Part shown: piece by piece, positions 2,128 through 18,964 of the stretch | Position numbering within the stretch: the first letter of the stretch is position 1 | How the letters are laid out: each line of letters starts with the position of its first letter | Source: an uncultured virus (IMG/VR IMGVR_UViG_3300042287_000568) | Lineage: Duplodnaviria; Heunggongvirae; Uroviricota; Caudoviricetes | Length of the DNA stretch: 20,000 nt | Virus record (IMG/VR): IMGVR_UViG_3300042287_000568 | Strand: one strand, 5' to 3' | Translations under genes and position numbers: made by a program | Notes under the pieces: generated by a model | What the model was told of the DNA's origin: nothing | The model's input: the letters and a program-made list of their open reading frames with translations, nothing else | The model's database searches: none

Positions 2128-2707
2128 CCTGTTCAGAATCGTAGGGAACGGACTTGGTATTCCCCATTTCGTCTTCGCCTTCTATTTCCCAACTTGAATC
2201 GTCGGACATGGTTTTACAGAAATCTGGTTCCATCTCAGAAAAGTCACGCATCACCAAGACTGAGTGTTTTTCGTCGGCATTAGTTACTACCGAGTCTTCG
2301 TATCGTTCGGTTTCTTGTTGTAAAGATTTCTTGCTATTTCCAGCAAGTTTCCTTACTCTGTTATCAAATTGAGAGTCAGAGAAAAGAGTACCGTTTATTC
2401 CTTTTTTAATTTTCTTGCGGCAGTTTTTCATGCCAGGGTGATGACATCCCTCGTTTGGCCAAAGACCAGTAGTTTCGTGATGCAACCAAGCACAGATATT
2501 GTTCAACGGGTACAACTCTGGATGGTCGGCAAGGATGACTTTGCAACGCCTAAAGCCGCCTGGTTTTTTCATGATTGGCCGCCAATAGCGAAGAAGGCGC
2601 TCAAGATTTCCTCTTCTTGGTCCGCGACCTTTGAGTAGGTCTCCAGTAACCAGTTCCTGCGGGATTATCCCACCAAGGGGGTCTGCCTTAATGTCTCTGC
2701 TGTTCAT
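2108..2707 (-). CDS. 199-aa phage head-associated protein with Cys/His motif
   Basis: ATGA overlap with the upstream gene. GNLERLLRYW...PGGFRRC...ICAWLHHETTGLWP resembles a small domain I recall from actinophage capsid-maturation/MuF-type proteins. Acidic tail. Confidence 0.65.
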   Translation of the reverse strand: MNSRDIKADPLGGIIPQELVTGDLLKGRGPRRGNLERLLRYWRPIMKKPGGFRRCKVILADHPELYPLNNICAWLHHETTGLWPNEGCHHPGMKNCRKKIKKGINGTLFSDSQFDNRVRKLAGNSKKSLQQETERYEDSVVTNADEKHSVLVMRDFSEMEPDFCKTMSDDSSWEIEGEDEMGNTKSVPYDSEQDDDVEQ

Positions 2708-3114
2708 TGTTTACCCGTTCTGGAGCGTACTATATTTATGTTTTGCGTCTGCATCAGTGTTTTAAATTCTGTAGCACGATGATTGATTGATTTTTCTTTT
2801 GCTTTTGATTTCATTGCATCTGAGGAAAAAACAACACCAGAAGACATTCTTGGGGAAACAACCTGAGTTTTTCTTATGAAAACCCTTTCCCATTCATCGC
2901 TATTATCCCAAGACGCTCCATCCCATAAAAAATCATGAAACTTCGTTGAACGTAATGGTACTAGATTTCTGGCATTCATAGCGGTTGCCCAAAAATTAAC
3001 AACCTTTGGTTTGACGCCATCATCAAGTATTCCATCGGTTTTTTCGTCTTTTGCATCAATTACATAAAACAGTTTTTTGTCTCCAAAAACGGTCCCTACC
3101 AATACCGCTTTCAT
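2704..3114 (-). CDS. 136-aa hypothetical protein
   Basis: ATGA overlaps at both ends (3111-3114 and 2704-2707) indicate translational coupling. No recognisable motif. Confidence 0.8.
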   Translation of the reverse strand: MKAVLVGTVFGDKKLFYVIDAKDEKTDGILDDGVKPKVVNFWATAMNARNLVPLRSTKFHDFLWDGASWDNSDEWERVFIRKTQVVSPRMSSGVVFSSDAMKSKAKEKSINHRATEFKTLMQTQNINIVRSRTGKQ

Positions 3115-6100: not shown

Positions 6101-8774
6101 TTCTTGCTTCAACAGATTTGGCCTTAAACTCATTTGCACCATTTCTTAAATGTGAAACAGCATTAACAAGTTTTGATTTTTCTTCTGGGGTTAATGCTTC
6201 TCCTCTCTTTGCTTTAAGCGCTATTGCTTCAAGTTCAGGAAACGAAATACCCATCGTGTTAATAAGTTCATTAAGTAGCCGTTTTCTTTCAACTAAAGCA
6301 GGCTCTGAATAGCCGTTCTTTTTAGTTTTCATGTTTGCAATTTGTGCAAGCGTTTGCCTTAGTCCACCCTTGCCGTCTTCTCCGTACAAGAACTCATCAA
6401 TGTCTTCAAGAGTAAAACGACCCTCTTTAATCATTGTCGGAACTTTTCCATATCTGTCTCGCTCAAACGGGTCAACAGGTCCTCGTGCGCCACGACCGCC
6501 ACGACCGCTTCCTCTTCCTGGAATCACGGTAACGACCTTCCCGGCGTTCGCAGGGAGCGATGGTGCCGAACTTGGCAGCGATGGCCTAACTGGCCTTGGT
6601 GAACCACCGGGGGGTGATGGCACGATTCCACCAGATGGAGATATTGAACCAGGAGACATTGGAGGAAGTGGTGTCATCTTGTCAAGAATTGCATCCAACT
6701 CGGGGTCGTCACCTATGAGGCCGACAGATTTGTTTGCTTTTAATTCCGAGAGCGTCTCTAGTAGCGCAATGCTTCTAGAATAGTTAAAGTCTTCCCTGCT
6801 GCCTCCTCCTGTTAGTTCTTCAAGCGCCTCTTGCTGTGCTTTTTGACTGTATGCACCGGCAAGTGCATCAAAACGCTTATCAATCAAGTCTTCAATATCG
6901 GCACCAAAAACATCTCGTAATATCTCTGGTGTTGCTTTCGTTAAGAACTCGTTAGTTAATTCCATCAATTCACGGTTGTTTAAATCCTTCATGGCTACAC
7001 CAGGACTAGTTTCTGCATGGTATTGAAAAATTGCATCCATCTGACCCCAGTGGGCTCTTTCGTGAGCAGATGTTTGTGCACCAAAATCTCTCCAACCTCT
7101 TCCTTCTGTTGCCGCCAGGTCAACACTCCACAGTGCTGAATATGCCCTTAGACGCTCGTCTTTGTCCATCTCTGAAGCAACCGCTCTCCACTGGTCGTCA
7201 ATGTCTCCTCCGGTTGCTTCGTACAGGTCCATATATCCACTTGGTGGAACTCCTCCCCTAAATCCTAGAATTGCTGGTCCAGAGTTAATTAAAATAAATT
7301 CTGGCTCCGCGTATCCGTTTAGGTCGTATCTGTCCCATCGGGGAACGTTGTATTTCTCTCCGTCTGGTCCGTCTGGAATTGGTCCAGCAGTATAAATTCT
7401 TTTCTTGCCTCCGGGCAATGTGAATGTGTGTGGTTGCTCGTACGCAGCAACAAGCATGTCTTCAAATGCTCCAAGCCTAAAATCTCTTTCTCTATCTAAA
7501 GCGGCATCAACAAATCGGGTAAGCGGAGTTATTTCTCCGTTACGCTTGGCTTCTTCGTATGCTTCCAGTGCATCAGTTGCATCAATACCAAGTTTGCTGC
7601 CAATTGCCCCAATGTGTGTTTTAATAATTGCTTCTACGGCCCATTCTTCGTGGCTTTCTAAAGAGCCACCTCTAAACAAAAGTTTAAATTGATTTGGGTC
7701 CAATGGAGAGTCTGGGTCAGCAGACATTTTTTCAATTATTTGTGCAATTTTTTTATATTCATTGGGTTCTGTTATTCCATAATATTCAGCAAGAAAATTA
7801 ATTGTGTCTGCTTTTTTCTGAGCAATTTTTTCCATTCTTGACTGCGCACCCATTGTCAAGCCAGAAACTTCTCTAAGTCTTACCGCTATTTGCGATACGT
7901 AAGACATGTCGTTCCATTTATCACCGACATGAGCAATTCCAACCCGCTTTGCAAGACTGGCAAGGCCAGCAATTCCATTTTCTTTAAATGATTTTCTAAT
8001 TTCGGCGATACTTACCCCTGCAGAAGTAAGGGAGGATATTGTTTGAGACCCGCTCTGTGGTGCCTGCATTGATTGAGTTAGAGAACCAATCAAGTTACGT
8101 ACCTGGGCTACTGAAATGTCAAAACATCCTTCACCTCTGAAGTTAGTAAATCTGTTTGCTGCTGGCGTCCCAGGAGGGCATCTAAATTTTCCAAGAGCAT
8201 CAACTACCACACCGAAAGACTTTGCTGTTCGTGCAAGAAGTTTTCCGCCAGGATTTCTTTCAGCAAGCGTTGGTCCAAGAGATTTAAACTCTTGTTCAAC
8301 TCCGTAATTTTTCATTGGTTCACCAGTTTTGGGGTTTACTGGATACCTTGTTACTTTGCCTTTTGCGTTTTTTGGCTCTTGGAGTCTATTTTGATTCTCC
8401 GGATTCCTGTCAACCCATCCCCAGTTGGGAACTGGGTCGTTTGAGCGCATTGCGTTAATTCTTTCTCTTTCCGTAACCCACGGCTTAAAGAATTGGCCCT
8501 CTTGTTTTTTGGCTTCTGGGTCATAGACAAGACCATTGATGTTTATGTACTTGGATTTTCCAGCGCTTTGAAGTCCTCTTTTTTTATCTTCGGCAGGAGC
8601 ACCCGCTCCCATTGCTGCCTTAATAGAGACGTCGGCTATTAATCTTTCCGATGATGAAATAATCCTTGTTCCGGCCTTGAAAAGCAATGCAGACATATCC
8701 GCATCAAGACGCGTTGTTCTATTATTGAATCCAGGCGCGTAATGGCGAATTTTATTAATGTCCACCCCCGTCAT
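3111..8774 (-). CDS. ~1887-aa multidomain (polyvalent-type) protein: C-x17-C motif, zincin HExxH domain, split degenerate ART-like fold, C-terminal DUF3626-like region
   Basis: Start reassigned to the ATG at 8774 (MTGVDINK), 16 nt after the upstream stop, because the track start at 8906 overlaps the previous gene by 116 nt. Motifs: AHERAH (7050-7064), GLDKSIIPEDMVV, VRIAVPAGSKG...MILPPG, YGRGIELVL...FEAFIVGEISLNDVEHI. Confidence 0.7.
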   Translation of the reverse strand: MTGVDINKIRHYAPGFNNRTTRLDADMSALLFKAGTRIISSSERLIADVSIKAAMGAGAPAEDKKRGLQSAGKSKYININGLVYDPEAKKQEGQFFKPWVTERERINAMRSNDPVPNWGWVDRNPENQNRLQEPKNAKGKVTRYPVNPKTGEPMKNYGVEQEFKSLGPTLAERNPGGKLLARTAKSFGVVVDALGKFRCPPGTPAANRFTNFRGEGCFDISVAQVRNLIGSLTQSMQAPQSGSQTISSLTSAGVSIAEIRKSFKENGIAGLASLAKRVGIAHVGDKWNDMSYVSQIAVRLREVSGLTMGAQSRMEKIAQKKADTINFLAEYYGITEPNEYKKIAQIIEKMSADPDSPLDPNQFKLLFRGGSLESHEEWAVEAIIKTHIGAIGSKLGIDATDALEAYEEAKRNGEITPLTRFVDAALDRERDFRLGAFEDMLVAAYEQPHTFTLPGGKKRIYTAGPIPDGPDGEKYNVPRWDRYDLNGYAEPEFILINSGPAILGFRGGVPPSGYMDLYEATGGDIDDQWRAVASEMDKDERLRAYSALWSVDLAATEGRGWRDFGAQTSAHERAHWGQMDAIFQYHAETSPGVAMKDLNNRELMELTNEFLTKATPEILRDVFGADIEDLIDKRFDALAGAYSQKAQQEALEELTGGGSREDFNYSRSIALLETLSELKANKSVGLIGDDPELDAILDKMTPLPPMSPGSISPSGGIVPSPPGGSPRPVRPSLPSSAPSLPANAGKVVTVIPGRGSGRGGRGARGPVDPFERDRYGKVPTMIKEGRFTLEDIDEFLYGEDGKGGLRQTLAQIANMKTKKNGYSEPALVERKRLLNELINTMGISFPELEAIALKAKRGEALTPEEKSKLVNAVSHLRNGANEFKAKSVEARKKFEDYRSVDVSRATGDGSEYDDKDTNSLNLERIQAEIEMYESLFQRVGRGIAPAVHDILTISENGPYPPRLTARKPGPQPLVGIEIDGADGIAIKQASKLNPQELAALSEAVTNPPRIISSLSPQNVSELTSTLEDIENVRQVFERNNLTPPTTVADDELKNAAPVMSGLDKSIIPEDMVVELEIDMPEDTSPGSIHEIPQISSAQLITDSNTEEVNIPSSGFSSTTGARTKAGIAGRLIASQRTRKLLEKAGIDAERTDVVQLMSEVAIGFSIGGPYGALLPIARRGSRDAAEQALRMMVERGWIEQDIADKIEKYGLDRIATEGLPDEILNLAESAKGKLLTDDSKRKALEFGSVLQDRSIELSDVAREKASAMAASGKEKARELTGAGRETARRLRNRLGGGSEEIDATDAFSLPPSGSPFDIPAPDIDPFKSAFVDIEFKQLGTSLMEQKQGKKTKVRIAVPAGSKGKIEAGKTKASNMILPPGKVKFTGVGEDGVPEAEIFDQMSAEQYMKNVEKISLEVSSSSNKPSIKKSAKLRADTAKKMRQEMVAKSGTPQSMSGISKIVFDKSNSIMERGEAAGINFFTLEKIKNNDTDIDVSEYVRLYQEKLISTINNYSKSLPTRLFDDGISADTKKFIYGTPIKEVVKAVNEVAVLIHNDIDRRARVSMSKSSLEQFVGSGKIANIDVDSESLKILKTKRDAMLGNAPGIKEFSFTPIELIHGILIEKVEENLYKNGTHVGSEEFTDYGRGIELVLRAENSPRIGYGRKESYKNGGIFVQINEEDEQIIQAAIFGQMFMSTSGAEEYLAEIIEASLSKDYSKLIKKNDEDIFEAFIVGEISLNDVEHIKIPLSIFNIRKKRVSKSSMIGGADSINMIFMNRSVPKEKIKDFFDGEGTIGGGYTPKHLSYLNELEAAEEFKENLISLGIDEVLFTNKDGIDIMSEDTWRTPPPTKKKGKDALREIARREVMSIIDKIAPAPKKAEPKKETVKK

Positions 8775-8790
8775 ACGGGCCACGCTTTCT

Positions 8791-10167
8791 CTAGATTGTT
8801 GGTTCTGAGTCTTTGACCTCGGCCTCAAGGAGTTCAAACTCAACAAGCGATGCCATAAGGTCAGAGTCAACTTCTCCGGATTTTTCTTCAACAAGTTTTG
8901 CTCCACCGGTTACCCAGTTGGCGGGGATAAGTTTTTCCTGACCCATAGCCTTGGCTTGCTTCATAATGTGATTCTTTGCTGCTTCTTTGTCTTTTGCACG
9001 ACCGTATGCGCTGATTGCGTTCTTGAGGTCTTCTACGTTAGAAATAGGAAAGGAACCGTCTGGAAGTGCTTTTCCTTCTTCTGCCATTTGTGTGCGCATG
9101 TCTTCATTGAATGCACGCTTTAATGCAATCTCTGCGGCTTCTGCTTCAATGGCTTCTGCTTCTTCTGGCTCATACTTGTCGTATCCAAGAACTTCACCGT
9201 CAAGTGAAACGAATACGTCGTAAGACTTTCCGTCAATTCCTTCAATTTCAACTGCGTATGCATCAAAGCCTTCAAAGATGTCTGGCTCAACAGCAACAAC
9301 GTCACCCTGAATGGACTTAACTGCAATCTCTGCTGCTTCGTGGAAGTCAATTACCATCATTGAATCAAGTGCTGACTTCTGCTCAAAGGCATTGTCATCA
9401 AGTTTGTGGAAACCGAGAACTTCTGCAGTTGTACCATCAATAAAGACTTCAACCGCACGGCCGCTCTTTGATTGAATGTCAACCACGAACATGTCTGCAT
9501 CTGAAGAATATCCAGAGTCAAGAACCTTGCCCTTAAACATTTCTTCGGCAATTCCTTCAACAGAAAGAAGACCTGGCATTCCGCGCTCTGGCAAGCATCC
9601 ACCAGGACAATCGTCACAGACGCCTGAACCACCTGGGTAAACTTTTCTTTCAACAGCACACATGTATGCGTTTCTTCCAAGTTCTGCGACTTTTTCACCC
9701 ATGTTGGCAAGACGTTTCTTTCTTGCTGCTTCTAGGTCAACTTCTCCGTCGTACATTTTCATCTCGGCGTCTTCGTCGTCTTCTTCTTCGTCGTCTTCGT
9801 CGTATTCTTCTTCGTCGTCTTCTTCAATTTCAAGAGACATTTTCTTCTTGGATGACGGCATTGACGCCATCTCGTCTTCGTCATCCATCTCTTCGTCATC
9901 ATCTTCTTCGCCAGGCATTCCCATGCCCGTGCCCTTTTGACGCTTTTTCATAGCGTCAAACATTTCACTATCGTCCCATTTGTCTCCACCCTTGACTTCA
10001 TAGTCATCATCGGTGACTGGAACCATCTTCATCTGGATAGGCATTGCTCCGCACTTACCGCACACTTTTGCACCTGGGGTAAACCCGCAGTCGGCAACAT
10101 TTGCGCCCTTGGCACACTTAAGAACATTGCCGTCCGCATCAACACTGACTTCAACTTTTTCGCTCAT
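8791..10167 (-). CDS. ~458-aa protein with two Cys clusters, an acidic tract, tandem PepSY-like domains and a C-terminal ALPDGSFPI domain
   Basis: AGGAG at 10178-10174 precedes the ATG at 10167 (MSEKVEV). Cys clusters CAKG..DC..VCGKC and C..VCDDCPGGC. IDFHEAAEIAVKSIQGDVVAVE...YAVEIEGIDGKSYDVFVSLDGEVL fits the PepSY pattern, with a similar copy just before it. Confidence 0.7.
   Translation of the reverse strand: MSEKVEVSVDADGNVLKCAKGANVADCGFTPGAKVCGKCGAMPIQMKMVPVTDDDYEVKGGDKWDDSEMFDAMKKRQKGTGMGMPGEEDDDEEMDDEDEMASMPSSKKKMSLEIEEDDEEEYDEDDEEEDDEDAEMKMYDGEVDLEAARKKRLANMGEKVAELGRNAYMCAVERKVYPGGSGVCDDCPGGCLPERGMPGLLSVEGIAEEMFKGKVLDSGYSSDADMFVVDIQSKSGRAVEVFIDGTTAEVLGFHKLDDNAFEQKSALDSMMVIDFHEAAEIAVKSIQGDVVAVEPDIFEGFDAYAVEIEGIDGKSYDVFVSLDGEVLGYDKYEPEEAEAIEAEAAEIALKRAFNEDMRTQMAEEGKALPDGSFPISNVEDLKNAISAYGRAKDKEAAKNHIMKQAKAMGQEKLIPANWVTGGAKLVEEKSGEVDSDLMASLVEFELLEAEVKDSEPTI
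9767..9910 (-). repeat. Low-complexity GAA/GAC-rich tracts encoding Asp/Glu runs
   Basis: (tcg/tct)n runs on the + strand translate to EEDDDEEMDDEDE and EEDDEEEYDEDDEEEDDED. Confidence 0.8.
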
Positions 10168-10173
10168 TGGTAA

Positions 10174-10178
10174 CTCCT
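10174..10178 (-). promoter_or_regulatory. Shine-Dalgarno site
   Basis: AGGAG 6 nt upstream of the ATG at 10167. Confidence 0.75.
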
Positions 10179-10243
10179 GTTTTTTAGCGAGTAAAGACAC
10201 GAGTGTCAATATCACATTATGAATAGTTTATAAAAGTATAACT

Positions 10244-10276: not shown

Positions 10277-13200
10277 TTATGCTTCTGGGACAATATTGAT
10301 TTTTTTCTTCACGCCGTCTTTGTTTGTGACTGTTCTTCTTGTTGAACCAATTTCTGATGTACTTTTATCAATAAATGTAGACATGGCTGCGCCGGCAACT
10401 TTTTCAATTAGTCTTGAGTACCAGCCAATTCTTTTATCTCCACCAGCCTGTACCTGTTGGTCAAGGGCAAATTGAAGACCGTCAAGAATTAAGTCAACTT
10501 CATCCATCGTCATGTAGATACTTCCGACGTTTGTTCTTCTGTCGCCTGTTTTTGAGGCTTCACTTCTTTTTATAATCTCTTGAAGTTTTGTTAATCCTGA
10601 TGCTGCTTTAGTGTTTCTAGCCTTTTGCGCGGCTCTAATCTCTTTTGCAAGAGAATTCTCAATGTCCTTAAAAAAGGTTGCTTCGTCAGTAATCATCGTT
10701 TTGCCGGTTGATGAGGAGAATCCCATTCTTCCCTTTTTTGGTGAAGGGTTTTGACGTTTTTCATCAAGTTCTGCAACAACCTGCTCAATCAGCGTAGATA
10801 GTTTTTTAATTTCCCCTTCGCGTTTGGCATTTGATTGAGGCGTTTCTGGTGTTCCAGGACGTGCCGGTCTACCGTCTCTTGGAGGGCGAGGTTTGTCGCC
10901 AGTTGAAGACTGGAATCCAGACACTCCACCCTCTCTGTCGTTAAACCACTTGTCTTCCGAATACTCTGATTGCATCTTTAAGAGTTTCTTCAATAGTGCG
11001 TTAGCACGAGCGACACTCTTCTTTTCGTAAGCATTTTCTCCTGAAGTAATGTCAATATATGATGAAAGTTCGTCAATTGCTTCTTTTAGCGACTTTGGAG
11101 TGATGTCTTCAACGCCAAGGATTGTGGAAACAGTGTCCCAGATGTCTTCAGAATCAGGATTGATGTCTGTTTCGTCGTATTCCATTCCTGAAAGTTCACG
11201 AATTGAGTCATCAATCCATTCATTGAAAGCATCAAGACGCGCCTGTCTCTTGGCTTTCGCTTGCTCCGCAGTTGCTTCTTCCTTAACTCGCTTAGATGAT
11301 TCTTGTGCTTCTTTTTGACGCTCTTCTCTTTCGGAAGTGAGTCTTTCTTTCTCGTTGTCAGAACGTTCATCCATGGCGCTTTGTCTTGATTCTGAACGGG
11401 ATTTTCTTCGTTCTTCTGGAGTCATGCGCTTTGTTTCTTCCCTGGCTTCTTCTTCGCCAAGTTTCCTCATTGCACCCTGATAGGCGGCAGGGGACATCGT
11501 TCCACCCTTTTCAGGGTTTCCTTCCCCAAGCATCCAACCCCATTTTTCATCAATTGTAAGTTTTTCCCATTCTTCTGGTTTGGCTTGGTCAAAAGAGTCT
11601 CCAGTGAACTTGGGGTCGGGCTTTGTTCCCATTACTCCACCCTTGCCAACACCCGTAGGCTCGCCGTCACGAGGACGTACTTCAAAGTCGGCAGGTCTCA
11701 TTGCTGGCGCTACGCCAGGCCTCTTGTTTCTTCTTTCGTAATTATCGGTTTCCGAAGAAAAGCCAGTACGACCTCTTCTGCCAGTTCCACTATTTTTGCC
11801 AGTGGACCAGTTTTGTACCAGATAGTCACGTCGCGCAATAAGGGTGTCAGAAAGTTTCTTTGCTTCACCTTTGTCGGAAATTACAGCATCAACCATTTCT
11901 TTGATTTCAGAATCTGATACTGCTCCAATTGCTTTTACCTGACGAGCAATTTCTGCTGGAGGAATGTCTCCCCAGTATGCAACACCACGTCTAGCGCCCG
12001 ACTGATTTGGGTCTCTCAAGGATTCCATTTCCCCGACGATAGGACCGAACGCCGAGCCCTTTGCTTCTCCTCTTGCTCGGAAAAGACCAGCACCACCAAC
12101 ATCAATGACGTACGCTTTACCGTCTCCGCCCTTAATGGTGTTTCCCGAGTTTGAAACAGCGTCCCAGTTTGCAAGCCATGCATTAGCCACAAAAGTGTCT
12201 TGAACTGCCTTCTTCCATGCTGAGTTCTTTATTTCGGATTCATGGTCAACCTGTTTTGCCCCTGGAACCATTTCGCTAACAATTTTTGGACGACCTTTGT
12301 AGGTTCCTACTTTTACTTTTCCAGCAGGAATACCTAATCTTTCATAGAAACGAGACATTAGTGATTCGTTTTCTGCATGAGTTTGTGACTTTGGCGGCTT
12401 GATGTAATATTCCTTACCAGTCTTGGGGTCCTTGAATACGCCGCCACCCTGTGAGCCACCCATGGGGCCAGAATTGGTGTCTACGAAGTCATCTGTAACA
12501 ATCGGGTTGTTTGACATTGTGTTATCAAGCAAGCCTTTAGGTACTGGTCTGTCGTCAATTATAAATCCAGCACTACCACGTGGTGAAGTGTCTGTATCTT
12601 TTCCGCGACCGAATATGCCCCTACGTCCAGTTCTGCGAGCAGCACCACTAGCGGAACCTGGCCCCATGTTTTCATACATGGTGCGCAATCTCTTCCAGTA
12701 CGACGCCGGCATTGTTCCCTTGTCTTTGTCAAACCTCTGAATTGCTTCTTGGACAAGTCTGAGTCCGCCCTGCTGTCTACCCCACATGATGAGTTGCTTT
12801 TGCATTGTCTCAGGAATGTCGGATGGTGCTCCGTTGTTTTTGCCACCACCAGTAGATGATTCAAAGCCTCGTCCACCACGAACATCAATACTGGAGTATT
12901 TTCCTTTTTGAGATTCTGCTGCTTGCTCAAGAACCCCAACCACATCAGACGTGACCACTCCTCTGTCGGTTCGCATTTTGTCTATTTCTTTTATGACTGC
13001 TTCGTATTCGTCTTTATCAACTGAAAATTTGCCGTTTGTGGCTTTTTCAAGTTTTTCAGCAATGGCCCTGAGCGGAGCAGGGTTGTCTGTCATTTTCATA
13101 AAACCCTGAAGTTCGTCACGAAGTTCGCCGATTTCAGAATCATCTAGTTCTATATCAAGTTTTTTGTGTGGGTTTATTGTTCCATTGGAACTCTTAAAGC

Positions 13201-16200
13201 CGCGAGGGCGTTTTGCTGTTCTTCCACGACCGCCACCTTGTCCATCACGAGAAGGACGGGAAAGCCTGGTTCCAGCCTGCTGAAGAGCATCTGATTCGTA
13301 GGTTCCATCTTTTGAGTCTTTTGTTTTCTTCAAAGAGTCAATCAATTTATCTATTGATTCTTTATCGTCTGAATCTTCAACCGGACCATTGTCTCTCATT
13401 CTTGTGAGAGTGTCCATGTAGTCGTCAATTTCTTTATCCGTAAGAGGGATTGAGTCGTTTGCGGCTGAACTCTCATCAAGTTTGTCCAGAATGTTCTGGA
13501 TGACTTGCATGTCTTCGTCGGCACCGATGCCGTCTAGTTGGCTTTCATCCATATATTTTTTAAGAACTTCATTTAGTTCTGCATATTCAGCAAGCGTCAT
13601 GTCCATTTCGCGCTTGTCAGATGAGGAACCAAGTCCACTCTCTCCATCACTACCGGTAGAAGACGAAAAGCCTCTTACTTTGTCCCCGCTTCTAATGCGA
13701 GAATCATTTCCTCTACGCATTGAAGAAAGGGTGTTTGTAACATTGGCTTGGGTTGTACCAGTAAGTTTTGCTATTTCACGATACGACAATTCATCATTAT
13801 CGTTATAAAGTCTAATGATTTCATTACGTAGGTTAGTTGTTGCTTGTCTTTCCTTGTTTGGATTGACGGAACGAAGAGGAACGTCTCCCGCTTTTCTTCT
13901 TTTATCTATAACATTGCGAATGTTAGCAAGTTCCGTAAAAATACCATTTGAACCAGGCTGGGAACTTAAAAAGCGAGATATGTCGCCAACAGTTTCACCG
14001 TCGTTGTACATTTCAACGATTTTGTCTTCTCTTTGTTTTCTATCCCTAACATCAAATTTTTTACCTTTTGAGTCACCACCGCCGGTTCTGGAAGCAAAGC
14101 CGCGAAGTATTTCTCTTTCCTTTTTACCTCTATTCGGAAGGAATGGAGAACCTTCTCTACCATCCTTGAGGTATTGAACGAGGTCCTCACTGACGCCATC
14201 GTCACCCAGTTCTTTTGCAATACGCTGAATTACTCCTGATTCATCATTTTTTGCACCTTCTCTAATTGCATCAGAAAATTCTTTTGCTAATTTTTCTGGG
14301 TCAAGGCTTGGGTCAAGGGTAATAATATTTTCTAGTGCATCTTCAAAAAAGCCATTTAGTTGTACTAGGTCTTCGTCACTTATGTTTCCCTTTCTGATTC
14401 TGTCAATAAATGCATCCGTAGGAACAACGCCCTCTGTGCTGTCTAGGTACCTAGCAAGTTCTTCCATGTCAAGAAGATTTTTGAGCAAGTCAAATAATCT
14501 TTCTTTTTCTGATTCTGATTCCTTTTTGGCTTTTGCTGGTTCTGTTCCACGGAAGGATTTTGTTCTTGCATCAAAAAGGTTCTTTGATTTTTCGGATATT
14601 TTTTTTAAAGATTGTGTGAAGTCAGACAACAACTCGGCCTGAAGGTCGTCCGCTTCTTCGCCTGTTCCATTTTCTCTAGCCCTGTCAACATAGTCGTCAA
14701 AAGCCAAGTTAAGAACTTCTTCAATTCCGTCTATAAAGTTTTGTATTTCTCTTCTATCGTTAAATTGGCTAATGAAACCGTCGCCTTCTTTGTCGTCAGA
14801 AGAAAGAGTGTCAACTAATTTTTTTCTAATTTCTGAAAGCACTTTTCCAGGACTTTCGTCTAGTTTTTCTTTGCTTAAATTAGAAAAAATATCATTAAGA
14901 ACTTTAACTCTGTCCGAAAATGCTTTTTGATAACGTTCCGGAAGACGACCCTCGTCTGTTAGTTCTCTGAATCTTTTAAGAGACATTCCTATGTCTTTGG
15001 CTGCCAATTCTTCTATGGCATTGTCAATTTGAGGAATATCAATTTTGACAACACCTGCAGTGCTTGAACTAAGTCCACTTCTTACAGCGCCAGCGTTTCT
15101 GTCTCTATCAAGGTTTTCTGAAGCAGCGTCACCAACTGGGTCGTCAGCCATACCTCTGCTTGGGCGTCGCATTGGTGGTCCCATTGCTTCGTCGTATTCA
15201 TCTGCGTTGTCATCGCTACCCATACGGGAAGCCATTCCGCTTCTGCGTTGATTTTGCCATGCGCGGGTTGCAGCATTGGTGTCAACTCTTCCACCAGATG
15301 CACGGTCGTTTACTCCAGGAATTGCAGGACGTGAGTACGGCGTTCCTTCTTGTACGATTCCGTCTCCGTCACCGTCCCATGCTTTTGGGTCAAAGTTTAC
15401 CGCGCCCCTACCGGCGCGGCCTAATTTTCCCAGGCCCCCGCTTAGCGTTCGCCCCAGGGCTTTTTCGGCTACGCCAATAGCCTCTATAAATTCTTGTGTT
15501 ACTTCGGTTGTGATGACAATGCCATCTTCCGTCACGTGAGATTCAACCCTGTGATAATCAAAAATTGGGTCAAGTAATTGCTTGGTCTCAAACGCGTTTT
15601 CCAGTTTGACAGGAATTAGGTAATCACTTTTTGATTCAACATCTTTTTCCGCTGATGAAACAATGTCTTGAAGTGTCTCTAGGACTGTTTTTAGTTTTGA
15701 CATATTGCGGGAACTAAGCGTTCTTCCAACTTTTACATCAAATGTCTCGTCAAGAATCTGAGCAAGATTTTCTAGTTCTTCGTCAAAGGCTGATTTTTCA
15801 TAATCCTCACCTTTAGGCATTACGTATTCAGGACTAACAACGAAGTTCGTTGCGCCAGTTGGCACGCCAGGCTTGACCTGCATTGGCATTGAAGGCATCT
15901 GTGACGGAACAACCGTACGTGAACCACTCGGTTGTTGTCCGTCTGCCAGTTCAGGCTTGCCAAACATAAAGGTAACGTAATTGTCTGGAGTGTGATATCC
16001 GATTCTGTACATTACAGAACGACCATCAGAGGTCATTCTTCTGAACTTTGCCGTGCTTTCAGTAGCGGAAACTAGTTGAATTGAGGAACCGCTTCTGCTT
16101 TGTAGTTCGCGTGTCAATCTTTCTTTTTCATTGTCACCAAGCGCCCGAGCAAGACCCTCTGAGAAAATTGGTTTGTCGTCGTCATCGTCGTCATCATCAC

Positions 16201-16801
16201 CCTGTCTAACGACGATAATTTTTGGACCTTGGTTCATTCCAGTATGGTGAGGCATCATCATTCCGGGCATGTGCTTTTCGGCTGTTTCGTCAGACTTTAC
16301 AGAAATTGTTCCAGTCAATTGATTGGCACCATGTAGTACTGGCGATACTTCGTAAAGTTCAACTTCTTTTAGAATGTTTGCTTGGATGTTCGGGTCAAAA
16401 ATTGAATCAAGCGTTTTGTATCCGATTGACCACTCTTGTTCTTGTCCGAAGAACGCGACGTTGGCGAAGGCTTCCCGACCTTTTTCTGAGTTGAGATTGA
16501 ATTGAACCTTTGCGTACAAGCCACCAATACCGGCGTTGAGCATCTTTGTTGGAAGTCTTCTGTCCCCTGGGGCAACTTCGTAAATCTCAAGAACTTTACC
16601 GATTGGGTCGTTCCAGTTGTGTCCCCAAACAACACGGGGCTTGCGGCGGGTAAGGCTTTTGGTGAATGCTCCAGTAATTAGAACGTCTCCTACTGAGTCC
16701 TTATTGCCGATGCCGGCGACGAAACACTCAACGACGCCTTGGGCCTCGTCAATGTTGAATTGGCCTGGAATGGCTTTAAATTGAATATCTTGCTGACTCA
16801 T
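10277..16801 (-). CDS. 2174-aa HK97-family prohead (capsid maturation) protease fused to a ~2000-aa modular extension (HTH pair, HipA/PI3-4K-like kinase, acidic repeats)
   Basis: aa 1-170 contain DSVGDVLITGAF, VVWGHNWNDPIG (catalytic His), GLYAKVQFNL, WSIGY (catalytic Ser) and LYEVSPVLHGAN. Lies directly after the portal, with an AGGAG RBS. Kinase motifs GSQGGG, YYIK, AENE, WLANWD, GN, IDVG. Confidence 0.9.
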   Translation of the reverse strand: MSQQDIQFKAIPGQFNIDEAQGVVECFVAGIGNKDSVGDVLITGAFTKSLTRRKPRVVWGHNWNDPIGKVLEIYEVAPGDRRLPTKMLNAGIGGLYAKVQFNLNSEKGREAFANVAFFGQEQEWSIGYKTLDSIFDPNIQANILKEVELYEVSPVLHGANQLTGTISVKSDETAEKHMPGMMMPHHTGMNQGPKIIVVRQGDDDDDDDDKPIFSEGLARALGDNEKERLTRELQSRSGSSIQLVSATESTAKFRRMTSDGRSVMYRIGYHTPDNYVTFMFGKPELADGQQPSGSRTVVPSQMPSMPMQVKPGVPTGATNFVVSPEYVMPKGEDYEKSAFDEELENLAQILDETFDVKVGRTLSSRNMSKLKTVLETLQDIVSSAEKDVESKSDYLIPVKLENAFETKQLLDPIFDYHRVESHVTEDGIVITTEVTQEFIEAIGVAEKALGRTLSGGLGKLGRAGRGAVNFDPKAWDGDGDGIVQEGTPYSRPAIPGVNDRASGGRVDTNAATRAWQNQRRSGMASRMGSDDNADEYDEAMGPPMRRPSRGMADDPVGDAASENLDRDRNAGAVRSGLSSSTAGVVKIDIPQIDNAIEELAAKDIGMSLKRFRELTDEGRLPERYQKAFSDRVKVLNDIFSNLSKEKLDESPGKVLSEIRKKLVDTLSSDDKEGDGFISQFNDRREIQNFIDGIEEVLNLAFDDYVDRARENGTGEEADDLQAELLSDFTQSLKKISEKSKNLFDARTKSFRGTEPAKAKKESESEKERLFDLLKNLLDMEELARYLDSTEGVVPTDAFIDRIRKGNISDEDLVQLNGFFEDALENIITLDPSLDPEKLAKEFSDAIREGAKNDESGVIQRIAKELGDDGVSEDLVQYLKDGREGSPFLPNRGKKEREILRGFASRTGGGDSKGKKFDVRDRKQREDKIVEMYNDGETVGDISRFLSSQPGSNGIFTELANIRNVIDKRRKAGDVPLRSVNPNKERQATTNLRNEIIRLYNDNDELSYREIAKLTGTTQANVTNTLSSMRRGNDSRIRSGDKVRGFSSSTGSDGESGLGSSSDKREMDMTLAEYAELNEVLKKYMDESQLDGIGADEDMQVIQNILDKLDESSAANDSIPLTDKEIDDYMDTLTRMRDNGPVEDSDDKESIDKLIDSLKKTKDSKDGTYESDALQQAGTRLSRPSRDGQGGGRGRTAKRPRGFKSSNGTINPHKKLDIELDDSEIGELRDELQGFMKMTDNPAPLRAIAEKLEKATNGKFSVDKDEYEAVIKEIDKMRTDRGVVTSDVVGVLEQAAESQKGKYSSIDVRGGRGFESSTGGGKNNGAPSDIPETMQKQLIMWGRQQGGLRLVQEAIQRFDKDKGTMPASYWKRLRTMYENMGPGSASGAARRTGRRGIFGRGKDTDTSPRGSAGFIIDDRPVPKGLLDNTMSNNPIVTDDFVDTNSGPMGGSQGGGVFKDPKTGKEYYIKPPKSQTHAENESLMSRFYERLGIPAGKVKVGTYKGRPKIVSEMVPGAKQVDHESEIKNSAWKKAVQDTFVANAWLANWDAVSNSGNTIKGGDGKAYVIDVGGAGLFRARGEAKGSAFGPIVGEMESLRDPNQSGARRGVAYWGDIPPAEIARQVKAIGAVSDSEIKEMVDAVISDKGEAKKLSDTLIARRDYLVQNWSTGKNSGTGRRGRTGFSSETDNYERRNKRPGVAPAMRPADFEVRPRDGEPTGVGKGGVMGTKPDPKFTGDSFDQAKPEEWEKLTIDEKWGWMLGEGNPEKGGTMSPAAYQGAMRKLGEEEAREETKRMTPEERRKSRSESRQSAMDERSDNEKERLTSEREERQKEAQESSKRVKEEATAEQAKAKRQARLDAFNEWIDDSIRELSGMEYDETDINPDSEDIWDTVSTILGVEDITPKSLKEAIDELSSYIDITSGENAYEKKSVARANALLKKLLKMQSEYSEDKWFNDREGGVSGFQSSTGDKPRPPRDGRPARPGTPETPQSNAKREGEIKKLSTLIEQVVAELDEKRQNPSPKKGRMGFSSSTGKTMITDEATFFKDIENSLAKEIRAAQKARNTKAASGLTKLQEIIKRSEASKTGDRRTNVGSIYMTMDEVDLILDGLQFALDQQVQAGGDKRIGWYSRLIEKVAGAAMSTFIDKSTSEIGSTRRTVTNKDGVKKKINIVPEA

Positions 16802-16805
16802 GTCG

Positions 16806-16810
16806 CTCCT
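16806..16810 (-). promoter_or_regulatory. Shine-Dalgarno site
   Basis: TAGGAGCGAC-ATG upstream of 16801. Confidence 0.7.
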
Positions 16811-16909: not shown

Positions 16910-18964
16910 TTAGATGTTTGAACCCATTGACCACGCCCGACGCGTTTCGTCTTCAGCAATTTGCGATTTCTTTTTTGCTAGGAGATTGGTAAATGTTCCA
17001 ACAAGAGCAGTGCGCAAAGTAGTTACCTTGTCTTCTTCGCCATGTACGCCAAGTGTTGCAAACACGGCATTGTTGATTTCCTGTGCAGTTTCATCGTTGA
17101 CTGACTTGATTCTGGTTATTTGCGAGTTGACATGAGCGACGATATCTTCTTTTTTTAACGGCATCTTGACAAGATTTTTTTCGGAATATGTTGTTTGTGC
17201 ATCATTGATAATTGCGTTAAGAACAGGCCTAATGTCTTCGTCCATCTGTTTAGCCCATACATCTGCGCTGAAAATGCTTTCCACATCAAGCGCTCCTGTT
17301 GCCAATAGTTTTCTAGATTTAATACCAGAGGCTTTCTCAAGAACAACTCTCTGTTGTCTCTCAAATACTCTTTCCAGGCTTCTATCAAGAATCTCTGTCC
17401 ATCGGTTAAATGTTGTGTCAACTTTTGTTTGCCACTCTTGTTCGCTCTTGCTTTGAAGCGCCGAGTAGTTTGCGGATGCTTGCGCTGGCGCGGTTGGCAT
17501 GGCTCCCTGCTCTGGAGACATGACACCGTCAACTGGTGGCATTCCTGCGTTTTGAGCCATCTGTTCACCCTGTGTTGCGAGTTCCATAGCACCCTGCATG
17601 GTTGTTGGGTCTGGAGGCATTCCCTCTGCACCTGGAGGCATTCCTGGCATTCCTGGCATTCCGGGCATTCCTGGTGCCCCAGGGACTCCTGGAGCCCCCA
17701 TTACACCGGCCTGAGCAGGCTCTTCCATCTTCTTCTTCGTGTTTGCAATCGGAGTGAGGTTTGGGTTCCATAAAAGAGAATCGGCAAGGTCGCTCTCAAC
17801 TTCTTTTCTGCCAGTTCCAGTTCTGTATTCGTTTGTGCTGATTAGACCTTGACCAAGTTCATCCTTGAGGTATCTGTTTCTTTCCTGTTCGTAAAGAATA
17901 AGAACAGGAACATTCCTGACGTCAAAGTCAATGTAATGCTGGTCGTCAAGTTCATCTAAGGCACGAGCAATTGGCTCTAAATGCGGAAGCATTGTTTCGT
18001 TCCAAAAGACTCGGATTTCTTCACCAGCGTTAGAGAATGTTCTGCCAGCAGCGTTTCCGATAACTGATTCCGGAACACCAAAAGATGCAAGAATTTCTTC
18101 CTTAGTAATTTGACGCATTTGAATATATGCAGCGTCACGAGGACTGGCGGATGTATCAACAAAGTCAGCACCATCGTCAGAAGAGATAACGGTCGTTGCT
18201 CCAGCACGAGCAATGTTTCCCCTGAATCTGCTCTTTAGTTCTTCTTTGTCATCATCGTCAATTTCTCCACGAAGAACAAGAAGACCTCCTGGACGACCAT
18301 CGTTTAGAAGGTAGTTTCTATTGTAAACCTTTGCCAAGTTTTCAATCTCAACAGCAATACCAGCAGCCTCTAATGGGGTCATTGATAGGTATGGGTCTAA
18401 TGGATGTGGTTTGCGAATCCAAATAACATCTTTTGGTTTCATGATTATGGTGCCGCCGTTTGGCATCTTCACTTCGTAACCAGCAACAAAATTTCTTGGG
18501 TCAGGAATTGGTGAAGTGCTTTGTGGGGGTAGAAGGTTGAGAGCAATTACTCCGCCGTCCCTGCCATAAATTTTTTCAATAAACACCCCTCGTGTGCTCA
18601 TTAAGAGTTGAGAAGAAAGCCTGTATCTAAATATAAATGAATTTTCACCTATATTGGATTTTGTGTTCAGAATTTTTAATATCTCTGAATTTTTTGCTTT
18701 TGAACCTACAATAATCTCACCCTGCGGAGAGTTGTCTTTCCTAAGAATCACTGGGAGTCTTGCTTGGTTTCCAGCAATTGCGTCAATACAACGAGCAACC
18801 CAAGTTACCTTCTGCATTCCTTCTTTATAAACACGCTCAATATCCCACGAGTCAGAATACGCTTTTCCGGCATAGCCAGGGTTGTGCGCAATTGGAGCGC
18901 CAGGACCGACGCTCTTTGTGGACTGATTGTTCAGTGATTTATTATTAAAGTTATTCCAAGCCAT
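16910..18964 (-). CDS. HK97-family phage portal protein with Pro/Gly/Met linker and MuF-like C-terminal extension
   Basis: Portal motifs WVARCIDAIAGNQARLP, LNLLPPQ, DVIWIRKPHPLDPYLSMTPLEAA, NDGRPGGLL, EEILASFGVPESVIG, TFSNA and GLISTNEYR. Sits between terminase and prohead protease. Confidence 0.93.
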   Translation of the reverse strand: MAWNNFNNKSLNNQSTKSVGPGAPIAHNPGYAGKAYSDSWDIERVYKEGMQKVTWVARCIDAIAGNQARLPVILRKDNSPQGEIIVGSKAKNSEILKILNTKSNIGENSFIFRYRLSSQLLMSTRGVFIEKIYGRDGGVIALNLLPPQSTSPIPDPRNFVAGYEVKMPNGGTIIMKPKDVIWIRKPHPLDPYLSMTPLEAAGIAVEIENLAKVYNRNYLLNDGRPGGLLVLRGEIDDDDKEELKSRFRGNIARAGATTVISSDDGADFVDTSASPRDAAYIQMRQITKEEILASFGVPESVIGNAAGRTFSNAGEEIRVFWNETMLPHLEPIARALDELDDQHYIDFDVRNVPVLILYEQERNRYLKDELGQGLISTNEYRTGTGRKEVESDLADSLLWNPNLTPIANTKKKMEEPAQAGVMGAPGVPGAPGMPGMPGMPGMPPGAEGMPPDPTTMQGAMELATQGEQMAQNAGMPPVDGVMSPEQGAMPTAPAQASANYSALQSKSEQEWQTKVDTTFNRWTEILDRSLERVFERQQRVVLEKASGIKSRKLLATGALDVESIFSADVWAKQMDEDIRPVLNAIINDAQTTYSEKNLVKMPLKKEDIVAHVNSQITRIKSVNDETAQEINNAVFATLGVHGEEDKVTTLRTALVGTFTNLLAKKKSQIAEDETRRAWSMGSNI
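17637..17674 (-). repeat. 9-bp tandem repeat (GGCATTCCT/G x4) encoding (GMP)n in the portal linker
   Basis: ggcattcct ggcattcct ggcattccg ggcattcct gg on the + strand; the protein reads PGMPGMPGMPGMPP. Confidence 0.9.

What the first reader, a model, noticed from the sequence alone, without database searches (positions are those of the whole stretch)
10277..16801. Giant prohead protease built as a polyprotein: about ten G-[FLM]-x-S-[SRE]-T-G linkers delimit unrelated cargo modules
Seen: after a ~170-aa HK97-type protease, a short motif recurs at aa 522 GMASRMG (15218-15238), 576 GLSSSTAG (15053-15076), 901 GFASRTG (14081-14101), 1044 GFSSSTG (13652-13672), 1056 GLGSSSD, 1201 GFKSSNG (13181-13201), 1312 GFESSTG (12848-12868), 1680 GFSSETD (11744-11764), 1962 GFQSSTG (10898-10918) and 2027 GFSSSTG (10703-10723). 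It is usually preceded by Arg/Gly-rich sequence. Codons differ between copies, so conservation is at the protein level. The copies fall at module boundaries: 901-1044 holds the HTH pair, 1056-1312 two acidic repeat units, 1312-1680 the kinase-containing module. Known: HK97-type proteases are normally about 200-250 aa, are packaged in the prohead and cleave head proteins and themselves. Inference: the motif is a cleavage or capsid-docking signal, so one gene loads the head with a cassette of separate effector proteins that are released at maturation and possibly injected.
Basis: partly seen in the sequence, partly recalled or inferred. Interest (0 to 1): 0.9.

Follow-up and report, generated by a model that had tools for sequence, protein, structure and literature searches.

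The report
Protease-led phage cargo polyprotein with cut-site code
A large uncultured phage fuses its capsid-maturation protease to a chain of swappable effector modules separated by a short conserved motif, probably a cutting signal, which also marks a second giant protein and the tail tape-measure protein; no cut has been measured.

Summary
Observation confirmed. The 2174-aa ORF (window 10277-16801, minus strand) starts with an S78/HK97-type prohead protease and carries 10 copies of G-[FLM]-x-S-[SRE]-[TMSN]-[GDA]. Shuffles give about 0.02.

- The copies are conserved in homologues, and whole modules come and go exactly between them.
- All 7 copies in the better AlphaFold model lie in low-confidence coil.
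- At least 304 clusters of 1195-3805-aa proteins share the protease. Cargo varies: ArdC, UvrD helicase, pentapeptide repeats, sigma-like HTH.
- 0 of 79 sites fall inside Pfam domains; 11.4 expected.
- Lineages use variants (F-x-S-S-T, K-L-S-S-G-R, L-x-S-T-S, M-x-S-R-G) with a common core, hydrophobic-x-Ser.
- Each variant recurs in a second giant protein and in the tape-measure protein of the same phage.

Best reading: a processing code, most likely read by the fused protease, that releases head-packaged, probably ejected effectors. Cleavage is inferred. The tape-measure sites and the nearly unchanged protease domain argue against a purely head-internal, protease-only model.

This is a new variant of polyvalent and capsid-cargo proteins. 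The scan noted comparable cargo codes on other DNA, none on this genome.

The parts
10277..16801 (-). 2174-aa protease-led cargo polyprotein (P0001)
   Evidence: Single ORF. Full-length homologues at 48-99% identity in IMG/VR. At least 304 clusters of 1195-3805 aa share the protease domain.
16274..16801 (-). S78/HK97-type prohead protease domain, aa 1-176. Candidate catalytic residues are His61 (16619-16621) and Ser125 (16427-16429).
   Evidence: Pfam PF04586 and PHROG 80. H61 and S125 are invariant in 41 sequences. They align with the H and S of 'FFNH' and 'MSVGF' in HK97 gp4. The HK97 residue numbers H65/S114 are recalled.
15518..16273 (-). Conserved post-protease region, aa 177-428, without motif copies
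   Evidence: Present in 104 of 120 homologues, median identity 50%. No Pfam family.
15239..15517 (-). 'FDPxAWDGDGDG...RP' domain, aa 429-521, ending at the first motif copy. Candidate packaging or anchoring domain.
   Evidence: Also found in three other proteins of the contig: 1095 aa, 791 aa and the 1566+ aa giant ORF, and in the same four genes of relatives. In 45 of the 56 homologues that hold the core, the next hydrophobic-x-Ser site lies 30-59 aa behind it. No family found.
15218..15238 (-). Motif copy 1, aa 522 GMASRMG
15056..15076 (-). Motif copy 2, aa 576 GLSSSTA
   Evidence: Extra modules are inserted just before this copy in L011 and L014.
14081..14101 (-). Motif copy 3, aa 901 GFASRTG
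   Evidence: Kept as GFASTT in the 50%-identity lineage.
13652..13672 (-). Motif copy 4, aa 1044 GFSSSTG
13616..13636 (-). Motif copy 5, aa 1056 GLGSSSD
13181..13201 (-). Motif copy 6, aa 1201 GFKSSNG (weakest copy)
   Evidence: Reads PFKSSNG in four homologues and is absent in L017/L020.
12848..12868 (-). Motif copy 7, aa 1312 GFESSTG
11744..11764 (-). Motif copy 8, aa 1680 GFSSETD
10898..10918 (-). Motif copy 9, aa 1962 GFQSSTG
10703..10723 (-). Motif copy 10, aa 2027 GFSSSTG
13673..14101 (-). Cargo module aa 901-1043 with two weak HTH-like stretches
   Evidence: Pfam hits below cut-off: Sigma70_r4_2 at E 2.5e-4, and HTH_SB, HTH_38 and others. Present in only 5 of 120 homologues. Deleted exactly between motif copies in L011.
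11765..12868 (-). Cargo module aa 1312-1679 with a protein-kinase-like fold
   Evidence: Foldseek on the AF2 model gives CtkA, PRPK, PknB and CDKs. No Pfam or PDB sequence hit. Homologous stretches occur in giant proteins of other phages. Present in 39 of 120 homologues.
10280..10723 (-). Conserved C-terminal module aa 2027-2174. Candidate capsid-targeting tail.
   Evidence: Present in 87 of 120 homologues, in 73 at the extreme C-terminus. Nearly invariant even in the most divergent full-length homologues, L017 and L020, which are 41% identical over aa 1040-2174. The function is inferred.
16910..18964 (-). Portal protein gene, directly upstream
   Evidence: Pfam Phage_portal E 3.8e-48. PHROG portal.
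121..10215 (-). Five downstream ORFs (474, 1931, 136, 199, 668 aa) lying between the protease gene and the capsid gene. No family assigned.
   Evidence: The capsid gene (PF05065) lies outside the window at contig 55593-56954.

Best explanation
**What the gene encodes.** The gene encodes a head-packaged cargo polyprotein.
- **Constant N-terminal block.** It holds the S78 prohead protease, about 250 conserved residues and the 'DGDGDG' domain.
- **Constant C-terminal tail.** About 148 aa.
- **Variable middle.** A chain of effector modules. In this phage these are a kinase-like module, an HTH-like module and several helical acidic modules.
- **Joints.** The modules are joined by disordered, Arg/Gly-rich linkers that each carry G-[FLM]-x-S-[SR]-T-G.

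**What the motif is.** I read it as a proteolytic processing site.
- Its universal core across lineages is hydrophobic-x-Ser.
- This fits the hydrophobic-P3 / free-P2 / fixed-P1 pattern of assemblin-fold proteases.
- The cut is therefore most likely just after the invariant Ser.

**Proposed sequence of events.**
1. The polyprotein is built into the prohead through its constant ends.
2. It is cut at the motifs by its own protease domain.
3. The freed modules stay with the DNA and enter the host.

The same code marks a second giant cargo protein and two linkers of the tape-measure protein. The reader of the code therefore serves all the long proteins that leave the virion.

**Shown.** Motif enrichment, conservation, boundary position, linker position, co-variation between genes, and intact catalytic residues.

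For: 1. **Enrichment.** 10 copies against about 0.02 expected. In 120 homologues, 358 against 9.6. Variant B, 121 against 3.8 in the 31 proteins without variant A.
2. **Modules change only at the motif.** Extra modules in L011 and L014, and loss of the HTH module in L011, fall exactly between copies. Sites are kept at aligned positions down to about 50% identity.
3. **Sites avoid domains.** 0 of 79 sites lie inside Pfam best stretches in 16 homologues (11.4 expected, binomial P 4e-6). Sites bracket ArdcN+MPTase, UvrD+UvrD_C and Sigma70_r4 as whole units.
4. **Sites lie in linkers.** 7 of 7 copies in model 2 lie in coil with pLDDT<50, between blocks of pLDDT 60-83. 46% of the model is low, so the chance is about 0.004.
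5. **One reader for several genes.**
   - In the 118-kb relative G001, the 17 PSSM hits fall in three ORFs only: polyprotein 10, 3222-aa ORF 4, tape measure 3.
   - In G009, the polyprotein (10) and the second giant ORF (6) both use K-L-S-S-G-[RK] and no variant A.
   - 86 of 120 tape-measure homologues carry a site, concentrated at about aa 35-42 and aa 500-640.
   - In 14 polyprotein/tape-measure pairs from the same contigs, F-SST, L-SRS, L-STS, L-SSS and M-SRG variants match between the two genes.
6. **The protease looks active.** H61 and S125 are invariant and align with the HK97 gp4 catalytic pair.
7. **Capsid protein junction.** The junction that aligns with HK97 K103|S104 reads K-D-V-[YF]-S|[AS] in four capsid proteins. 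That is hydrophobic-x-Ser followed by a small residue (103-residue scaffold domain in PMC10275583).
8. **Architecture.** Constant ends and a variable middle. A C-terminal propeptide has been proposed to target the SPN3US protease to the prohead (PMC7411985).
Against: - No cut has been observed. There are no proteomic data.
- The tape-measure protein is not a head protein, so a protease confined to the prohead could not reach it.
- The protease domain barely changes between lineages with different motif variants. No column separates 50 variant-A from 25 variant-B proteins. Only positions 8, 17 and 145 differ at the 85% level. Mutual information peaks in the variable linker behind the domain. 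The residues after the Ser therefore seem to be read by something else, or by few residues.
- The capsid-protein junction shares only the low-information core and does not follow the variant in G009.
- The other giant ORFs between protease and capsid gene (474, 1931, 668 aa) carry no motif.
- 11 of 120 homologues match neither regex and needed lineage-specific readings made after the fact.
- AF2 models are weak, with mean pLDDT 40 and 50.
- Variant B was defined on the same proteins in which its excess is counted.
- Contig pairing is by equal contig length only.
Confidence: 0.55

Rival explanations
1. The motif is a cleavage site, but the reader is not the S78 domain. It could be a host protease or another phage peptidase that acts after the tape-measure protein and the head cargo have been ejected into the cell.
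For: - The motif marks the tape-measure protein as well as the head cargo, that is, the long proteins expected to leave the virion.
- Variants differ between lineages while the protease domain stays 75-85% identical, with no fixed difference.
- Some homologues carry an MPTase-PolyVal peptidase. Iyer et al. propose that this peptidase processes polyvalent proteins (PMC5512222).
Against: - The MPTase is absent from the window protein and from most homologues.
- The S78 domain is the only peptidase common to all 120.
- The hydrophobic-x-Ser core fits assemblin-fold proteases. That pattern is recalled, not tested.
- No host is known.
Confidence: 0.17
2. The motif is not cut. It is a repeated binding site on linkers for a common partner, which could be the capsid interior, portal or tail channel, a chaperone, or DNA through the flanking Arg/Gly-rich stretch. 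The partner would keep very long proteins ordered for packaging and passage through the tail.
For: - It occurs on all three very long virion proteins, including the tape measure.
- It co-varies between genes, which implies a common partner.
- The upstream flank is Arg/Gly-rich.
Against: - The strict placement between functional units, and the gain or loss of modules at the motif, fit release of separate products better.
- The constant C-terminal tail and the DGDGDG domain are better docking candidates.
- No partner has been identified.
Confidence: 0.15
3. The motif is a site of modification on Ser/Thr. This could be phosphorylation by the embedded kinase-like module or the Zeta-toxin-like kinase nearby, or glycosylation.
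For: - The motif is rich in Ser and Thr.
- A kinase-like fold lies in the same protein.
- A Zeta_toxin/AAA_33 protein lies in the head gene block.
Against: - The kinase module is present in only 39 of 120 homologues, while motifs are present in nearly all.
- In variant B the residues after the invariant Ser are Gly and Arg/Lys, not Ser/Thr.
- No glycosyltransferase was seen among the ORFs scanned. Small ORFs were not scanned.
Confidence: 0.04
4. The motif is only a lineage-typical flexible linker, spread by duplication and shuffling of modules together with their flanks, and nothing reads it.
For: It lies in disordered linkers, and modules are shuffled.
Against: - Gly, the hydrophobic residue and Ser are invariant, with free codon use.
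- Sites are kept at aligned positions at 50% identity.
- The same variant appears at fixed positions of the tape-measure protein, which is not a shuffled cargo module.
Confidence: 0.05

Closest known systems
Polyvalent proteins of phages and conjugative elements (Iyer, Burroughs, Anand, de Souza, Aravind 2017, PMC5512222; passages read)
   Same: - Many unrelated effector domains in one giant polypeptide of a phage.
- Predicted to be delivered with the DNA and released by an embedded peptidase.
- Homologues here carry the hallmark domains ArdcN, MPTase-PolyVal, UvrD helicase and kinases.
   Different: [quoted passage not shown] Here the S78 protease is N-terminal in all 120 homologues.
- The window protein has none of the hallmark Pfam domains.
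- In the passages I read, the paper does not describe a recurring inter-module motif, its lineage variants, or its presence on the tape-measure protein.
Capsid-targeted, protease-processed internal or ejection proteins: T4 IPI-III and Alt with gp21 (L/I-x-E sites; recalled), SPN3US gp245 and phiKZ gp175 substrates (PMC7411985 passages; PMC10052503 search listing only)
   Same: - Proteins loaded into the prohead, trimmed by the prohead protease at a short motif, then ejected into the host.
- The site pattern of a hydrophobic or small residue, a free residue and a fixed residue.
   Different: - There the cargo are separate gene products with a targeting propeptide. Here cargo is covalently chained to the protease itself, and to a second polyprotein.
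- The protease is S78 (HK97 type), not T4 gp21 type.
- The proposed P1 is Ser.
- Here nothing has been measured.
HK97 gp4 protease with its C-terminal capsid-targeting part, and protease-scaffold fusions such as lambda C/Nu3 and herpesvirus UL26 (recalled; Duda, Oh, Hendrix 2013 seen only as a reference-list entry, paper not held)
   Same: - Same catalytic domain family.
- An N-terminal catalytic part plus a C-terminal part that could direct encapsidation.
- The capsid protein carries its own N-terminal scaffold domain.
   Different: - About 1500 aa of cargo (aa 522-2026) lie between the constant N-terminal block (aa 1-521: catalytic domain, post-protease region, DGDGDG domain) and the C-terminal tail.
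- The nearest cultured relatives (Gordonia phage Gray, 41% identity) have a 455-aa protease directly followed by the capsid gene.
- No sequence similarity of the tails was found.
Tail-associated lysin Tal of lactococcal phages Tuc2009 and TP901-1, cut at a Gly-rich sequence (recalled, not checked in a paper)
   Same: A tail protein with a C-terminal lysin part and a Gly/Ser-rich processing site in a linker. The tape measure here has motif copies in Gly-rich linkers.
   Different: - A different protein family and a different motif.
- That processing is ascribed to the protein itself.
- Here the same motif is shared with head cargo.

Membership tests
Peptidase S78 / HK97-type prohead protease | Sequence match to the family model above the curated threshold | tested here: met
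   PF04586 at 44.4 bits against a cut-off of 21, aa 23-169. PHROG 80 at E 1.9e-27.
Peptidase S78 / HK97-type prohead protease | Catalytic His and Ser in place | tested here: met
   H61 and S125 are invariant in 41 sequences and align with the His and Ser of HK97 gp4. That these are the catalytic residues of gp4 is recalled.
Peptidase S78 / HK97-type prohead protease | Gene sits in the head module between the portal and major capsid genes | tested here: met
   It lies directly after the portal gene. The capsid gene follows on the same strand, but 16 kb and nine ORFs later.
Peptidase S78 / HK97-type prohead protease | Cuts the capsid protein and itself inside the prohead | not testable with these tools
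   There is only an aligned candidate junction, K-D-V-Y-S144|A145.
Polyvalent proteins (Iyer et al. 2017) | Two or more unrelated effector domains in one polypeptide of a phage or conjugative element | tested here: met
   The window protein has a kinase-like fold plus HTH-like and other modules. Homologues hold 2-5 Pfam effector families.
Polyvalent proteins (Iyer et al. 2017) | Hallmark domains such as MPTase-PolyVal, ArdC-N, DdrB-ParB or MuF | tested here: not met
   None in the window protein. They are present in homologues that share its protease, for example P0191-P0193, P0201, P0204 and P0168.
Polyvalent proteins (Iyer et al. 2017) | Assemblin-like peptidase, where present, at the C-terminus | tested here: not met
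   The protease is N-terminal here and in 120 of 120 listed homologues.
Capsid-targeted cargo processed by the prohead protease (T4 IP/Alt type) | The same cleavage motif in the cargo and in the capsid or scaffold proteins | tested here: inconclusive
   Only the core hydrophobic-x-Ser is shared with the predicted capsid junction, and the full motif is absent from the capsid protein.
Capsid-targeted cargo processed by the prohead protease (T4 IP/Alt type) | A targeting sequence that brings the cargo into the prohead | tested here: inconclusive
   The candidates are the DGDGDG domain, shared by four proteins, and the constant C-terminal tail. No binding test gave an answer.
Capsid-targeted cargo processed by the prohead protease (T4 IP/Alt type) | Presence of the processed pieces in virions and their ejection | not testable with these tools
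   No cultured member and no proteome are available.

The most novel reading that the evidence does not exclude
These phages use one lineage-specific peptide code, read by the protease that heads the polyprotein, to process every long protein that leaves the virion. These are two cargo polyproteins in the head and the tape-measure protein in the tail. If so, a 'prohead' protease also works outside the prohead, on the tail or after ejection inside the host. The full set of delivered effectors of an uncultured phage could then be read from sequence by cutting at the code.
Probability: 0.25. Interest if true: 0.85.

Novelty: new variant of a known kind. Interest (0 to 1): 0.68.

Why it matters
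**A sequence rule for delimiting cargo.** If the motif is a processing code, it gives a rule for delimiting the effector units that an abundant group of uncultured large phages loads into its virions. The group has at least 304 protein clusters at 90% identity. Its contigs reach 158 kb, and the 118-kb relative is rated 79% complete.

**Function for unannotated modules.** Most of the modules have no family. Their placement beside ArdC, helicase, pentapeptide-repeat and sigma-like modules marks them as candidate anti-defence or takeover factors.

**A packaging design.** Cargo appears to be inserted between the catalytic part of a capsid protease and its constant tail. That design could be used to load foreign proteins into capsids.

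**An open question made testable.** The same code on the tape-measure protein raises the question of which enzyme processes tape-measure proteins. To my recollection that is unknown even for model phages, and this phage group would let it be tested.

Tried and rejected
- **Complex prediction.** Protease domain (aa 1-176, 41-row alignment) with the linker around site 1312 gave no answer: score 0.00, controls not run. It is not evidence either way.
- **AF2 of aa 1-1100.** The model was too poor to use: mean pLDDT 40, with the protease domain itself below 35.
- **Specificity-determining residues in the protease.** No column separates variant-A from variant-B proteins. Only F8Y, I17L and K145Y differ at the 85% level. 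The mutual-information ranking is dominated by the variable linker and by relatedness.
- **Co-variation of the capsid-protein junction with the motif variant.** Not seen: G009 keeps K-D-V-F-S|A.
- **Sequence families for the cargo modules.** Pfam at E<=1 gave only sub-threshold HTH hits. The PDB sequence search of the kinase module gave nothing. The ESM Atlas gave nothing usable for the DGDGDG domain, best score 0.88 to unnamed clusters.
- **Same motif in another lake phage.** Actinomycetia phage DSL-LC01 has a homologous kinase module in a 3289-aa protein, but no copy of the motif and no obvious repeated word.
- **Internal sequence repeats in P0001.** None at E<=1.
- **Literature.**
  - Searches for polyvalent proteins with proteases, for prohead protease with tape measure and cleavage site, and for the motif strings themselves found no description of this family or motif.
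  - The library lacks most subscription journals.
  - Duda et al. 2013 could not be read.
- **Earlier notes of this scan.** None on this genome or sequence.

Full report
**Setting.** The window is the reverse strand of positions 29586-49585 of a 72,189-bp viral contig.

The contig belongs to a contractile-tailed phage. It has a tail sheath, baseplate J, collagen-like fibres, class II ribonucleotide reductase, Rad52 and a Cas4-like nuclease. It is a fragment: a close relative of 118 kb is rated 79% complete.

The gene order is:
- large terminase on the other strand;
- a small ORF;
- portal;
- the 2174-aa ORF of the finding;
- ORFs of 474, 1931, 136, 199, 668, 1095, 109 and 791 aa;
- the HK97-fold capsid gene, 16 kb further on.

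The nearest cultured relatives of the protease and capsid protein are Gordonia phages of the genus Bendigovirus, at 41-48% identity. There a 455-aa protease is followed directly by the capsid gene, and only aa 1-181 of the present protein align with it.

- The ORF is uninterrupted.
- Pfam Peptidase_S78 covers aa 23-169 and PHROG 'head maturation protease' covers aa 3-176.
- His61 and Ser125 are invariant in 41 related protease domains and align with the His and Ser of HK97 gp4.
- Whole-protein shuffles give 0.022 copies on average, and shuffles within 20-50-residue windows give 0.02-0.03.
- The invariant Ser is written with five different codons from both codon families, so selection acts on the protein.

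**The motif delimits modules.** Full-length homologues at 48-99% identity were found on 13 IMG/VR contigs, besides partial ones.

In an alignment of seven of them, every large insertion or deletion begins and ends at a motif copy:
- L011 has two extra modules after the first copy;
- L014 has one of these;
- L011 lacks the HTH-like module between copies 3 and 4.

At about 50% identity the sites persist at aligned positions in weakened form: GFASTT, GLASTSG, GFASSG, GFASGID, SFTSATG, GFASTSS.

In the AlphaFold model of aa 1040-2174 (mean pLDDT 49.8), all seven copies lie in coil segments with pLDDT under 50, between blocks of pLDDT 60-83. Low segments make up 46% of the model. The model of aa 1-1100 was too poor to use.

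**A large family with changing cargo.** A search restricted to proteins of 1195-3805 aa found 304 clusters that share the protease domain at E<=1e-5, of which 120 were listed at 76-99% identity.

Presence of the pieces of the window protein among these 120:

| Piece | Present in (of 120) |
|---|---|
| Protease | 120 |
| Region behind the protease | 104 |
| DGDGDG domain | 84 |
| C-terminal 148 aa | 87 (73 at the very end) |
| Cargo modules | 5 to 64 |

Cargo in other members includes pentapeptide repeats, Sigma70 region 4, UvrD-type helicases, ArdC-N with MPTase-PolyVal, RNase T with WYL, KTSC and DUF6321. These are the domains of the 'polyvalent proteins' of Iyer et al. 2017. Those authors argue that such proteins enter the host with the DNA and are released by embedded peptidases (PMC5512222, passages read).

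In the window protein itself, only a kinase-like fold could be named. Foldseek's top hits are H. pylori CtkA, then PRPK, PknB and CDKs. Pfam and the PDB sequence search give nothing for that module.

**Sites and domains.** I took the coordinates of the best Pfam stretch of each family in 16 members.
- None of 79 motif sites falls inside a domain. Domains cover 14.4% of the length, so 11.4 are expected (binomial P 4e-6).
- Sites never separate ArdC-N from its peptidase, or the two halves of the helicase.
- A site lies 8 residues before the start of ArdC-N in five of the six proteins that have that domain; P0168, which matches neither motif regex, has none.

**Lineage variants.**
- In those 31, a variant [G/K/R]-L-S-S-G-[R/K/A] occurs 121 times against 3.8 expected.
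- The 11 proteins with neither show further variants: G-L-A-S-T-S, G-F-A-S-S-G, L-R-S-R-T, and hydrophobic-x-S-[AGS]-P-[VF]-G-[RK]-M.
- The only universal part is hydrophobic, any, Ser.

From memory, not from a call: assemblin-fold proteases have sites of the form hydrophobic-x-fixed residue (herpesvirus V/L/I-x-A|S; T4 gp21 L/I-x-E|). I therefore place the likely cut after the invariant Ser.

The capsid protein offers modest support. The position that aligns with the HK97 maturation cut (K103|S104; 103-residue scaffold domain in PMC10275583) reads K-D-V-[YF]-S|[AS] in four capsid proteins. This core carries little information, and it does not follow the variant in G009.

**The code is not confined to this gene.**
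- *Own contig.* Motif matches outside the polyprotein lie in the 1573-aa tape-measure protein (aa 42; a near-copy at aa 624), in a 1566+-aa ORF cut by the contig end, and weakly in the 1095-aa ORF.
- *G001.* The 17 matches of a position matrix lie in three ORFs only: polyprotein 10, the full 3222-aa form of the second giant ORF 4, tape measure 3. The matrix was built from polyprotein sites, so only the last two counts are independent.
- *G009, a variant-B phage.* The polyprotein has 10 and the second giant ORF 6 variant-B sites, and neither has variant A.
- *G006, the same lineage.* The tape-measure protein has G-L-S-S-G-Q in its central Gly-rich linker.
- *Tape-measure homologues.* Of 120, 86 carry a site. 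Sites number 81 of variant A against 10.1 expected, and 63 of variant B against 20.9 expected, by window shuffles. They concentrate at about aa 35-42 and aa 500-640.

Several unlinked genes thus follow one reader.

**Who reads it.** The S78 domain is the only peptidase common to all members, and its catalytic residues are intact. However, it hardly differs between variant lineages:
- no fully discriminating column exists;
- three columns differ at the 85% level, including K145 to Y;
- the mutual-information ranking is uninformative.

A prohead protease would also not be expected to meet a tail protein.

**Other constant parts.** A domain with the core FDPxA[WYF]DGDGDG occurs in four proteins of the contig. 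It lies just before the first motif copy in the polyprotein and in the second giant ORF. With the constant C-terminal tail, it is my candidate for the part that brings these proteins into the prohead. For comparison, a C-terminal propeptide has been proposed to target the SPN3US protease (PMC7411985), and an N-terminal signal targets DarB in P1 (PMC9024508). No family was found for it.

**Verdict.**
- The polyprotein and module-boundary reading is well supported.
- Cleavage by the fused protease is the best but unproven mechanism (0.55).
- A cut by another enzyme after ejection (0.17) and an uncut binding site (0.15) remain live.
- Relative to polyvalent proteins and to T4- or SPN3US-type head cargo, this is a new variant. 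The differences are an N-terminal S78 protease as the carrier, an explicit lineage-specific inter-module code, and the same code on the tape-measure protein.
- I found no description of it in the searches.
- The scan has noted comparable 'cargo polyprotein with protease-site code' cases on other DNA, but none on this genome or sequence.

Noticed in passing
contig 67490-72189 (+), outside the window; full forms G001:C1:66560-76225 (3222 aa) and G002 (2410 aa): A second giant ORF with no Pfam or PHROG family. It starts with the DGDGDG domain (aa 45-79), followed by a motif copy at about aa 90-97 and further copies. It looks like a second cargo polyprotein without a protease.
   Followed up: partly
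contig 12546-17267 (-), outside the window: A 1573-aa tape-measure protein. It has an N-terminal coiled coil, a motif copy at aa 42, hydrophobic segments and a long Gly-rich middle. Its C-terminal part looks like a small peptidoglycan peptidase (my reading of the sequence, with only a weak PHROG 'tail associated lysin' hit).
   Followed up: partly
contig 53078-55453 (+), outside the window: A 791-aa protein in the head gene block. It combines DUF3721, the DGDGDG domain (aa 218-267) and a Zeta_toxin/AAA_33 P-loop kinase domain (aa 383-524), with a weak PHROG 'minor head protein' hit.
   Followed up: no
window 3111-8906 (-) and 8791-10215 (-): ORFs of 1931 aa and 474 aa directly behind the polyprotein, with no family and no motif copy. 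The listed GTG start of the 1931-aa ORF overlaps the 474-aa ORF by 116 nt, so its true start is probably further in.
   Followed up: no
window 10277-16801 versus contig 55593-56954: The protease and capsid genes, adjacent in the nearest cultured relatives, are separated here by 16 kb of mostly giant unknown ORFs. A lake actinophage (DSL-LC01) also has a 3289-aa ORF with the kinase-like module between its portal and protease genes.
   Followed up: partly
P0198, P0195, P0202, P0203 (homologues); contig 58338-59342: DUF6321 is inserted right after the protease domain in some homologues. In this contig it is a separate 334-aa gene downstream of the capsid gene.
   Followed up: no
window 16367-16369 (aa 145 of P0001): Lys145 of the protease domain is Tyr in 22 of 25 variant-B proteins. 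In that variant the motif has Arg/Lys two residues after the Ser. This is a possible specificity contact, but it is confounded by relatedness.
   Followed up: partly
aa 1064-1162 and 1214-1297 of P0001 (window about 12911-13612): The two acidic modules share no detectable sequence similarity. They do have the same predicted order of elements (strand, two helices, strand, two helices) in the AF2 model.
   Followed up: no
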